NCBI RefSeq assembly: GCF_048403405.1
Contig: NZ_CP183129.1
Length of the DNA stretch: 64,000 nucleotides
Direction: 5' to 3' (one strand)
Source of the DNA: Escherichia coli
GTDB lineage: Bacteria; Pseudomonadota; Gammaproteobacteria; Enterobacterales; Enterobacteriaceae
Shown: positions 3,582 through 4,121 of the stretch, in pieces
Numbering within the stretch: position 1 is the stretch's first letter
How the letters are laid out: the number at the start of each line of letters is the position of its first letter
Position numbers and translations under genes: made by a program
Notes under the pieces: model-generated
Seen by the model: the letters and a program-made list of their open reading frames with translations, nothing else
The model's database searches: none
Told to the model about the DNA's origin: nothing

Positions 3582-3958
3582 GAAGCTGACCAGACAGTCG
3601 CCGCTTCGTCGTCGTCCTCTTCGGGGGAGACGGGCGGAGGGGAGGAAAGTCCGGGCTCCATAGGGCAGGGTGCCAGGTAACGCCTGGGGGGAAACCCACG
3701 ACCAGTGCAACAGAGAGCAAACCGCCGATGGCCCGCGCAAGCGGGATCAGGTAAGGGTGAAAGGGTGCGGTAAGAGCGCACCGCGCGGCTGGTAACAGTC
3801 CGTGGCACGGTAAACTCCACCCGGAGCAAGGCCAAATAGGGGTTCATAAGGTACGGCCCGTACTGAACCCGGGTAGGCTGCTTGAGCCAGTGAGCGATTG
3901 CTGGCCTAGATGAATGACTGTCCACGACAGAACCCGGCTTATCGGTCAGTTTCACCTG
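3582..3958 (+). ncRNA. rnpB: RNase P RNA (M1 RNA)
   Basis: Direct recognition of the M1 RNA sequence from GAAGCUGACCAGACAGUCGCCGCUUCG to CGGUCAGUUUCACCU; the 3' end may be off by 1 nt. Confidence 0.95.
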
Positions 3959-4121
3959 ATTTACGTAAAAACCCGCTTCGGCGGGTTTTTGCTTTTGGAG
4001 GGGCAGAAAGATGAATGACTGTCCACGACACTATACTCAAAAGAAAGCGGCTTATTGGTCAGTTTCACCTCTTTTAACGAAAACCCGGCAGCGTAAACTG
4101 GCGGGTTTTTGCTTTTTGGAG
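3908..4121 (+). repeat. tandem direct repeat of the rnpB 3'-terminal segment plus terminator (two copies)
   Basis: AGATGAATGACTGTCCACGACA...GGTCAGTTTCACCT...CGGGTTTTTGCTTTTGGAG occurs at 3908-4000 and again, diverged, at 4009-4121. Confidence 0.8.
3966..3997 (+). terminator. rho-independent terminator of rnpB
   Basis: AAAAACCCGC-TTCG-GCGGGTTTTT hairpin followed by a T-run. Confidence 0.8.

What the first reader, a model, noticed from the sequence alone, without database searches (positions are those of the whole stretch)
3908..4121. Tandem duplication of the rnpB 3' end and terminator
The last ~50 nt of M1 RNA plus its terminator hairpin is followed by a second, diverged copy at 4009-4121 with its own hairpin. 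I recall such repeats being described downstream of rnpB. They may provide back-up termination or processing sites, and copy number probably varies between strains.
Basis: partly seen in the sequence, partly recalled or inferred. Interest (0 to 1): 0.25.

Follow-up and report, generated by a model that had tools for sequence, protein, structure and literature searches.

The report
Repeated rnpB tail-plus-terminator units
Directly after the E. coli RNase P RNA gene, its last ~50 bases and terminator hairpin are repeated once more. This is a short version of a repeat array that I recall being described downstream of rnpB in 1983, and its copy number differs between strains.

Summary
The window is the E. 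coli garK-rnpB-yhaC locus, with rnpB at 3582-3958. Unit 1 (3908-4008) is the last ~50 nt of M1 RNA, terminator T1 and a spacer. Unit 2 (4009-4130) repeats it: 88 of 94 ungapped positions are identical, far above shuffled controls. Unit 2 has its own longer hairpin, T2. A 22-nt vestige of a third unit follows at 4131-4152.

K-12 has 3.5 copies of a 113-bp unit at the same place, matching what I recall from Reed & Altman 1983 (paper not held). Copy number varies in 113-bp steps. At least 3,674 of 5,426 complete E. coli genomes carry 1-8 extra units. The window-type unit occurs once each in about 450 genomes.

The same array occurs in Salmonella, Klebsiella, Citrobacter, Enterobacter, Yokenella and Franconibacter. 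Every full extra unit examined keeps an intact terminator. Every extra unit also carries a conserved 12-nt insertion and a CC-to-AG change that disable the P4 strand.

The embedded ORFs are not conserved, and nothing supports a phage attachment site. The most likely role is a recombination-resized stack of back-up terminators. What conserves the insert is unexplained. This is an already known kind, of low interest.

The parts
3546..3574 (+). rnpB promoter-like site: GTGACA, 17-nt spacer, TATACT, ending 7 nt before the M1 5' end
   Evidence: Consensus scan, 10 of 12 matches. The position relative to the Rfam start at 3582 comes.
3582..3958 (+). rnpB, the RNase P RNA (M1 RNA), class A
   Evidence: RF00010, 317.5 bits, E 6e-104, full model. 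RefSeq annotation of the 99.9% identical strain 4621 agrees.
3908..3958 (+). Module 0: the native 3' end of M1 (J18/2, P2 3' strand, J2/4, P4 3' strand, P1 3' strand). This is the part of the gene that is repeated.
   Evidence: Repeat families D1 and D2, alignment and the Rfam structure line. The helix names are from established M1 structure (background knowledge).
3965..3996 (+). Terminator T1: stem GTAAAAACCCGC / GCGGGTTTTTGC, loop TTCG, then a T tract (the 'short hairpin' allele)
   Evidence: RNA fold -19.4 kcal/mol, z -4.8, 0 of 200 shuffles fold as well. Inverted repeat I3.
3997..4008 (+). Spacer GGAGGGGCAGAA, holding the Shine-Dalgarno-like GGAGG ahead of the ATG at 4011
   Evidence: Sequence. 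This spacer is not conserved across genera.
4009..4070 (+). Module 1: a pseudo-3' end of M1. It matches module 0 apart from one further substitution (C to T at 4055) and two changes: a 12-nt insertion (ACTATACTCAAA, 4030-4041) in J2/4, and CC to AG (4046-4047) in the P4 3' strand.
   Evidence: Alignment. Sub-threshold RNase P 3'-fragment hit at 3959-4070, 19.3 bits, E 2e-4. The same insert is present in all of the roughly 50 extra units from other strains and genera.
4078..4117 (+). Terminator T2: the 'long hairpin' allele CGAAAACCCGGCAG / CTGGCGGGTTTTTG with loop CGTAAA, then CTTTTT
   Evidence: RNA fold -20.7 kcal/mol, z -3.5, 0 of 200 shuffles fold as well. Inverted repeat I1. In other strains the same allele serves as rnpB's own terminator (L006 and L011).
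4118..4130 (+). Spacer 2, GGAGCATAGTGTA. The same tail follows the single unit of strain IAI39.
4131..4152 (+). Vestigial start of a third unit, AGATGAATAAATATCTACGGTA. It closes the array in all but one of the E. coli strains dissected that keep the yhaC-side sequence (K-12, Sakai, IAI39, ST131 and others); strain B has a diverged form.
   Evidence: 73% identity to the unit start (family D2). Present at the array end in these strains.
4011..4136 (+). 41-codon ORF running through unit 2. I judge it not to be a gene.
   Evidence: ORF list. No Pfam family. Start codon, Shine-Dalgarno, frame and length are not conserved across genera.
4159..4188 (-). Weak AT-rich inverted repeat overlapping the yhaC stop codon
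   Evidence: Inverted repeat I2. Fold -6.5 kcal/mol, z -2.4.
4185..5388 (-). Convergent yhaC, here a pseudogene with a frameshift near codon 230 and an in-frame stop
   Evidence: Split ORFs. tblastn with K-12 YhaC matches in two frames, and the translation shows a stop. RefSeq notes 'frameshifted; internal stop' in strain 4621.

Best explanation
This is a short allele of the polymorphic tandem array that follows rnpB in Enterobacteriaceae.

Each unit has three pieces: a copy of the last ~50 nt of M1 RNA, an intrinsic terminator hairpin with a U tract, and a short spacer.

The array grows and shrinks by unequal homologous recombination or slippage between the ~60-nt modules. This is inferred from copy numbers that differ by whole units and from mosaic units.

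In the copies beyond the gene itself, a 12-nt insertion and a CC-to-AG change disable the P4 strand. They are therefore pseudo-3' ends, not spare functional ends.

The most likely function is serial back-up termination. RNA polymerase that reads through T1 of this very strongly transcribed gene would meet T2 (and T3 onwards in other strains) before entering the convergent yhaC. The termination role is inferred, not shown.
For: Structure: unit 1 versus unit 2 has 88 of 94 ungapped positions identical.

Terminators: T1 is -19.4 kcal/mol and T2 is -20.7 kcal/mol, each with a U tract. All 38 full extra units from E. coli, Salmonella, Klebsiella, Enterobacter, Citrobacter, Yokenella and Franconibacter have a hairpin of -11.5 to -24 kcal/mol followed by a U tract. 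The stems show compensatory changes, for example AU/CG 9:9 at columns 79/102.

Resizing: the rnpB-yhaC spans include a 1374/1487/1600-bp series, in steps of 113. The dissected arrays hold 0 to 4 full extra units, and the short and long hairpin alleles are shuffled between positions. There are 1-8 extra modules per genome in 3,674 genomes.

Concerted evolution: the P1-like strand of the extra units usually carries the same species-specific changes as that species' own rnpB.

Experimental support for T1: it is an experimentally measured terminator, and its extended form terminates better than the minimal hairpin (PMC3643576).
Against: No transcript 3'-end data could be retrieved, so read-through of T1 and termination at T2 are not shown.

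Between 24% and 32% of complete E. coli genomes have no extra unit (for example ST131 and IAI39), so extra terminators are dispensable.

Back-up termination does not explain why the 18-nt repeat-specific segment is conserved across genera: 88% identity against 36% for the adjacent linker.

The simple terminator scan did not flag T1 or T2. I think this is because the A/T tracts extend the stem, but I did not verify that.
Confidence: 0.55

Rival explanations
1. Neutral by-product. The array is a minisatellite that persists only because the modules recombine, and the extra units have no selected function.
For: There is presence/absence and copy-number polymorphism within E. coli: 0 to 8 extra units, and a quarter to a third of genomes have none. 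The Salmonella copy number also differs between the two records seen. Most Enterobacteriaceae species representatives gave no exact match to the repeat-specific 19-mer; only 19 loci matched.
Against: The repeat-specific insert has no counterpart in rnpB to copy from. Yet it is 18/18 identical between E. coli K-12 and Salmonella and 88% identical on average among 13 lineages, while the adjacent linker is 36% identical. Intact terminators are kept in every full extra unit, with compensatory changes.
Confidence: 0.2
2. The pseudo-3' module is itself a functional RNA or DNA element that is present only in read-through transcripts. It might be a decoy or processing signal for the factors that mature the M1 3' end (RNase E, exonucleases, C5 protein), or a purine-rich A-R-N tract plus terminator that binds Hfq. 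This could coexist with back-up termination.
For: The insert and the disabled P4 strand are conserved across eight or more genera. The module keeps the J18/2, P2 and P1 strands. Arrays in other genera end with a module that has no terminator of its own.
Against: No promoter-like site lies in 3958-4150 on either strand. No Rfam family matches. The predicted internal helix (columns 3-12 with 48-59) is almost invariant, so covariation neither supports nor refutes it. The units are dispensable in many strains. No paper was found describing an RNA from here.
Confidence: 0.18
3. The units encode small basic peptides. The ORFs begin at ATG in AGATGAATG behind GGAGG and overlap by ATGA, as I recall being noted in the 1983 description.
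For: GGAGG lies 9 nt before the ATG at 4011. There is a 41-codon ORF in the window and there are 38-codon ORFs in K-12. The 12-nt insertion keeps the frame.
Against: The ORF stops after 9-14 codons in K. michiganensis, K. spallanzanii and Enterobacter JUb54. The start codon is lost in two Citrobacter species. A 1-nt indel shifts the frame in K. pneumoniae and Yokenella. The GGAGG is absent in most genera. There is no Pfam match. Each ORF would contain a terminator hairpin.
Confidence: 0.03
4. The copies are leftover attachment-site duplications from integrative elements that targeted the 3' end of rnpB, as happens at tRNA and tmRNA genes.
For: It is a duplicated 3' end of a small RNA gene next to a variable AT-rich region (yhaC/yhaB), which other Escherichia lineages lack.
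Against: The copies are contiguous, with no element or integrase between them. No IMG/VR viral contig contains the module. The only 'phage' and 'plasmid' hits I opened were chromosomal fragments or misfiled records; I judged most of the rest to be the same from their size and organism. The array changes by whole units, as homologous recombination would give.
Confidence: 0.03

Closest known systems
The 113-bp tandem repeats in the 3' flank of E. coli K-12 rnpB (Reed & Altman, PNAS 1983, 80:5359). This citation is from memory; the paper is not held in the library.
   Same: The locus, the unit start inside the M1 coding region, the terminator in every unit, and the GGAGG-ATG ORF are the same. K-12 shows 3.5 x 113 bp at 96%, and its units align with those of the window.
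   Different: The window has only one extra unit. It is 122 nt rather than 113 nt because it carries the long-hairpin allele, and it has three substitutions in the module. It lacks the REP/BIME insertion found in the last K-12 unit.
Tandem intrinsic terminators after highly transcribed stable-RNA genes, such as rrnB T1-T2 (background knowledge)
   Same: Successive GC-rich hairpins with U tracts follow a strongly expressed non-coding RNA gene.
   Different: Here each terminator comes packaged with a pseudo-copy of the gene's 3' end, and the number of terminators is polymorphic (0-8 extra).
Bacterial minisatellites (VNTR loci)
   Same: The units are head-to-tail, about 100-130 bp long, with copy number differing between strains by whole units.
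   Different: The first unit is part of an essential gene. No typing scheme using this locus was found.
3'-end duplications at tRNA/tmRNA integration sites (att sites)
   Same: A partial second copy of the 3' end of a small RNA gene.
   Different: There is no intervening element, no integrase and no phage counterpart.

Membership tests
rnpB 3'-flanking tandem repeat (K-12 type) | Lies immediately 3' of rnpB, with the first unit overlapping the last ~50 nt of M1 RNA | tested here: met
   rnpB lies at 3582-3958. The repeat starts at 3908.
rnpB 3'-flanking tandem repeat (K-12 type) | Head-to-tail units of about 113 bp, homologous to the K-12 units | tested here: met
   The units are 101 nt (gene copy) and 122 nt. 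The window's extra unit aligns with the K-12 units over its whole length: the same module, insert, terminator and spacer pieces. The extra 9 nt come from the long-hairpin allele.
rnpB 3'-flanking tandem repeat (K-12 type) | Extra units carry the repeat-specific insert in place of the P4 strand (CGAC-RCTATACYCAAAAGAAAG-CGG) | tested here: met
   Window 4030-4047. The insert is present in every extra unit of 21 loci and never in the gene copy.
Intrinsic (Rho-independent) terminator | GC-rich hairpin immediately followed by a U tract | tested here: met
   T1 is -19.4 kcal/mol and T2 is -20.7 kcal/mol, with tails UUUUUGCUUUU. The simple consensus scan missed both.
Intrinsic (Rho-independent) terminator | Actually terminates transcription | not testable with these tools
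   The library shows that rnpB T1 was among the terminators measured (PMC3643576). Nothing was found for T2.
Minisatellite / VNTR | Copy number differs between strains by whole units | tested here: met
   Spans form a series in steps of 113 bp. There are 1-8 modules per genome.
Small protein gene | Start codon, ribosome-binding site and reading frame conserved in relatives | tested here: not met
   truncations, lost ATG, frameshifts; no family.
Integrative-element att duplication | Copies flank an inserted element with an integrase, or match a phage attP | tested here: not met
   The units are contiguous. No viral contig carries the module. The phage and plasmid hits I opened are host chromosomal DNA or misfiled records.
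Independent sRNA gene / curated RNA family | Own promoter, or a match to an Rfam family at gathering score | tested here: not met
   No promoter-like site lies within 3958-4150. Only sub-threshold hits to terminator-like ends and an RNase P 3' fragment were found.
REP/BIME element | REP palindromes within the repeat | tested here: not met
   Absent from the window's units. Present only in the last unit of K-12-type strains.

The most novel reading that the evidence does not exclude
The extra units may be more than spare terminators. Their pseudo-3' module keeps the J18/2, P2 and P1 strands, carries a conserved 12-nt insertion, and has a disabled P4 strand. It appears to have been held nearly constant since the common ancestor of Escherichia, Salmonella, Klebsiella, Citrobacter, Yokenella and Franconibacter.

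That would point to a dedicated function in read-through rnpB transcripts. Examples are controlling M1 3'-end maturation or folding, or titrating C5, RNase E or Hfq. I found no description of such a function.
Probability: 0.2. Interest if true: 0.55.

Novelty: already known. Interest (0 to 1): 0.22.

Why it matters
For this window it matters little. It is a short allele of an array that, as I recall, has been documented in E. coli K-12 since the 1980s, and rnpB T1 is a standard terminator part.

Two points could interest RNase P or terminator specialists:
- The locus is a strongly polymorphic minisatellite attached to an essential gene, with 0-8 extra units across 5,426 complete genomes. That has consequences for assembly, for typing, and for how many terminators insulate rnpB from its neighbours.
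- The extra units share a conserved, repeat-specific insert across many enterobacterial genera. Simple back-up termination does not explain that, so the module may have a role in M1 RNA biogenesis that has not been examined.

Tried and rejected
- Tandem Repeats Finder on the window found nothing. The array is too short and gapped, so I used the repeat finder and a pairwise alignment instead.
- The consensus terminator scan missed T1 and T2. Folding with shuffles was used instead.
- The original description could not be retrieved by DOI or by a guessed PMC id. Eight full-text searches, including exact repeat sequences, rnpB+yhaC, rnpB+VNTR and Term-seq+rnpB, gave nothing on the repeats.
- Three papers that mention rnpB were checked. 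None mentions the repeats; one gives terminator-assay context for rnpB T1. No supplement was held for the terminator paper.
- Coding ORFs were rejected.
- A phage or integrative-element origin was rejected.
- A known RNA family for the extra unit was rejected.
- A conserved internal RNA structure of the module could be neither supported nor refuted, because the paired columns are almost invariant.
- The GTDB scan required an exact 19-mer. It therefore cannot show absence, and it biases the first 8 nt of the insert towards conservation. I restricted the conservation test to columns outside the pattern.

Full report
**What is in the window**

The region is the E. coli garK-rnpB-yhaC locus. Rfam's class A RNase P model matches 3582-3957 end to end (317.5 bits). 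A megablast search finds the stretch in 5,425 of 5,426 complete E. coli genomes, and it is 99.9% identical to strain 4621. In that strain RefSeq annotates garK, rnpB (equivalent to window 3582-3958) and a frameshifted yhaC on the opposite strand. A promoter-like GTGACA-17-TATACT ends 7 nt before the RNA start.

**Checking the observation**

- The repeat finder gives the 22-mer AGATGAATGACTGTCCACGACA at 3908 and, identically, at 4009. A 73% copy lies at 4131.
- It also gives a 60-nt repeat with 113-nt spacing, and GGCGGGTTTTTGCTTTT at 3980 and 4100.
- Hairpin arms lie at 3967-3976/3981-3990 and at 4080-4091/4098-4109.
- A global alignment of unit 1 (3908-4008) with unit 2 (4009-4130) has 88 identities in 94 ungapped columns. 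Its score is 91, against -57 +/- 9.4 for 1000 shuffles.
- The differences are a 12-nt insertion (4030-4041), a CC-to-AG change (4046-4047), a 10-nt expansion of the hairpin loop, and a different spacer tail.
- Both hairpins are strong and are followed by UUUUUGCUUUU. T1 is -19.4 kcal/mol (z -4.8) and T2 is -20.7 kcal/mol (z -3.5).
- The Rfam RNase P model also gives a sub-threshold 3'-fragment hit on 3959-4070 (19.3 bits, E 2e-4).

The second unit runs to 4130, and a 22-nt vestige of a third unit (4131-4152) sits just before the yhaC stop codon.

**Relation to what is known**

In a K-12 derivative the same site holds 3.5 copies of a 113-bp unit at 96% identity (L001). They are followed by a unit interrupted by REP sequences and then by the same vestigial AGATGAATAAATATCTACGG.

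This matches my memory of Reed & Altman (PNAS 1983), who described three and a half 113-bp repeats and small ORFs 3' of the M1 RNA gene. I could not retrieve that paper, and none of the full-text searches found anything on the repeats.

rnpB T1 is a terminator measured in a synthetic-biology panel, where the extended version terminated better than the minimal hairpin (PMC3643576).

**Copy-number variation**

I built a query from the unique part of rnpB joined to the 3' end of yhaC and used it to measure the distance between them in a spread sample of genomes. The spans fall into classes of 980, 1093-1102, 1264-1268, 1374-1382, 1487 and 1600 bp, and the last three differ by 113.

Dissecting one strain per class gave these arrays:

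| Strain | Extra units after rnpB |
|---|---|
| IAI39, ST131 | none |
| Sakai | one unit of 114 nt |
| The window, strain 4621 | one unit of 122 nt |
| K-12 | two full units plus a REP-interrupted one |
| 09-00049 | three full units plus a REP-interrupted one |

A 60-nt K-12-type module occurs in 3,674 of 5,426 genomes, with 8,284 copies in all and 1-8 per genome. All copies are chromosomal.

The window-type unit differs at three module positions and would be missed by that search. It is found over at least 80% of its length in 450 genomes, always as a single copy.

So between about 68% and 76% of complete genomes carry at least one extra unit, and the window's allele is a minority form.

Two hairpin alleles exist: short (CCCGC-TTCG-GCGGG) and long (CCCGCCAGCGTAAACCGGCGGG). 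The long one is T2 in the window and in strain B, but it is rnpB's own terminator in L006 and L011. This mosaic pattern is what unequal recombination or gene conversion between units would produce.

**Beyond E. coli**

Searches of the phage and plasmid collections returned no mobile element among the hits I opened, only misfiled chromosomal fragments or mislabelled records. These records were still useful:
- Salmonella Senftenberg has rnpB plus six extra units of 108 or 116 nt, using both hairpin types.
- A Salmonella Kentucky contig has one extra unit.
- K. pneumoniae has one full and one partial unit.

A scan of one genome per GTDB species with the repeat-specific 19-mer gave 19 loci. They come from Escherichia, Citrobacter, Klebsiella, Enterobacter, Yokenella, Franconibacter and unnamed Enterobacteriaceae. 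Two further records, labelled Chryseobacterium and Microvirga, are probably contaminated.

In all 21 rnpB genes examined, the native end reads CGAC-AGAACC-CGGCTT. In all of the roughly 50 extra units it reads CGAC-GCTATACC(C)AAAAGAAAG-CGGCTT or a close variant.

In an alignment of 25 extra units (A1) I compared 13 lineages. The insert columns lying outside the scan pattern are 88% identical on average. The two rnpB-like flanks are 94-95% identical. The linker just after the M1 3' end is 36% identical.

E. coli K-12 and Salmonella, which were not found through the pattern, share the insert 18/18.

The P1-like strand of the extra units usually carries the species-specific changes of that species' own rnpB, which indicates concerted evolution.

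Every one of the 38 full extra units has a hairpin (-11.5 to -24 kcal/mol, mean -18.1) followed by a U tract. The terminator stems show compensatory substitutions.

**What it is not**

- Not protein-coding. The ORF through each unit (4011-4136 here, 41 codons, behind GGAGG) has no Pfam match. Across genera it stops after 9-14 codons, loses its ATG, or changes frame through a 1-nt indel, and the GGAGG is mostly absent.
- Not an attachment site. The units are contiguous, no integrase lies between them, and no IMG/VR viral contig contains the module.
- Not a curated RNA family, and no promoter-like site lies within the repeat on either strand.
- A helix predicted inside the module (columns 3-12 with 48-59) is almost invariant, so covariation neither supports nor refutes it.

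**How it most likely works**

Shown:
- The array consists of the gene's 3' module plus a complete intrinsic-terminator motif.
- It changes by whole units between strains.
- Its units are mosaics.
- Its extra modules have the P4 3' strand disrupted.

Inferred:
- The array is resized by unequal homologous recombination or slippage between modules. Exchanges that would move the insert into the essential gene copy are presumably removed by selection.
- The extra terminators catch polymerases that read through T1 before they run into the convergent yhaC. On the opposite strand the hairpins also fold (-13.9 and -18.6 kcal/mol) but have weaker U tracts.

Arguments against a strong requirement: a quarter to a third of E. 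coli genomes lack extra units, and no transcript data were available.

Unexplained: the repeat-specific insert has no template in rnpB, yet it is conserved across genera. This suggests selection on the pseudo-3' module itself, for example in 3'-end maturation or in binding of M1-associated factors. Alternatively, some constraint that I have not identified is at work.

**Verdict**

The feature is an allele of an already known repeat, so interest is low. The cross-genus conservation of the disabled pseudo-3' module is the only aspect that might repay an experiment.

Noticed in passing
window 4185-5388 (- strand): yhaC is a pseudogene in this strain. K-12 YhaC matches in two different frames with a break near codon 230, and there is an in-frame stop in the N-terminal part. 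RefSeq marks the same gene 'frameshifted; internal stop' in the 99.9% identical strain 4621.
   Followed up: partly
L006 and L011 versus window 4078-4117; L012, L029, L030: Two terminator hairpin alleles exist, a short TTCG tetraloop form and a form about 8-10 nt longer. They occur in Escherichia, Salmonella and Klebsiella, and either can serve as rnpB's own terminator or sit in a later unit. The dimorphism looks older than these genera.
   Followed up: partly
L001:1683-1790 (K-12); also L005-L009: In K-12-type strains a pair of REP palindromes (BIME) is inserted just after the hairpin of the last full unit. Rfam gives sub-threshold hits to the REP-derived ES036 and naRNA4 there. The window lacks this insertion.
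   Followed up: partly
L036 (NZ_CP109732.1, Enterobacter roggenkampii 'plasmid'), around 985-1010: In this record rnpB is followed directly by the sequence that follows the terminal partial unit in K. michiganensis. There is no terminator hairpin after the M1 3' end, as if recombination between the gene copy and the terminal module had deleted all terminators. It could instead be an assembly artefact.
   Followed up: no
L027 (CACSKA010000008.1, 'Chryseobacterium sp. 18061') and L032 (289-nt 'Microvirga antarctica' contig): Both carry typical enterobacterial rnpB repeat arrays. They are probably contaminated or mislabelled assemblies.
   Followed up: no
Hits H101, H102, H105-H121: Most 'phage' and 'plasmid' records matching the rnpB 3' end look like chromosomal fragments or whole chromosomes filed in the wrong collection. 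Examples are NZ_LN868944.1 (728 kb, 'plasmid 2'), CP125156.1 (5.37 Mb, 'plasmid') and OR851195.1 (an unverified 2.5-kb 'phage' contig holding rnpB-tdcA DNA). I opened only six of them.
   Followed up: partly
L015, L017, L021, L026 (E. whittamii, Escherichia sp. E1V33, and divergent records labelled 'E. coli'): In these Escherichia lineages the array ends in a long partial module that runs straight into AT-rich sequence, with no yhaC-like sequence evident in the ~300 nt inspected. yhaC-yhaB may therefore be an insertion specific to E. coli proper. The yhaC/yhaB pair is also replaced by divergent hypothetical genes in L011 and reduced to fragments in ST131 (L010).
   Followed up: no
window 3958-4121: The consensus terminator scan reports neither T1 nor T2, although both fold at about -20 kcal/mol. 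I suspect this is because the A and T tracts pair and extend the stem, leaving too few unpaired T residues after it.
   Followed up: partly
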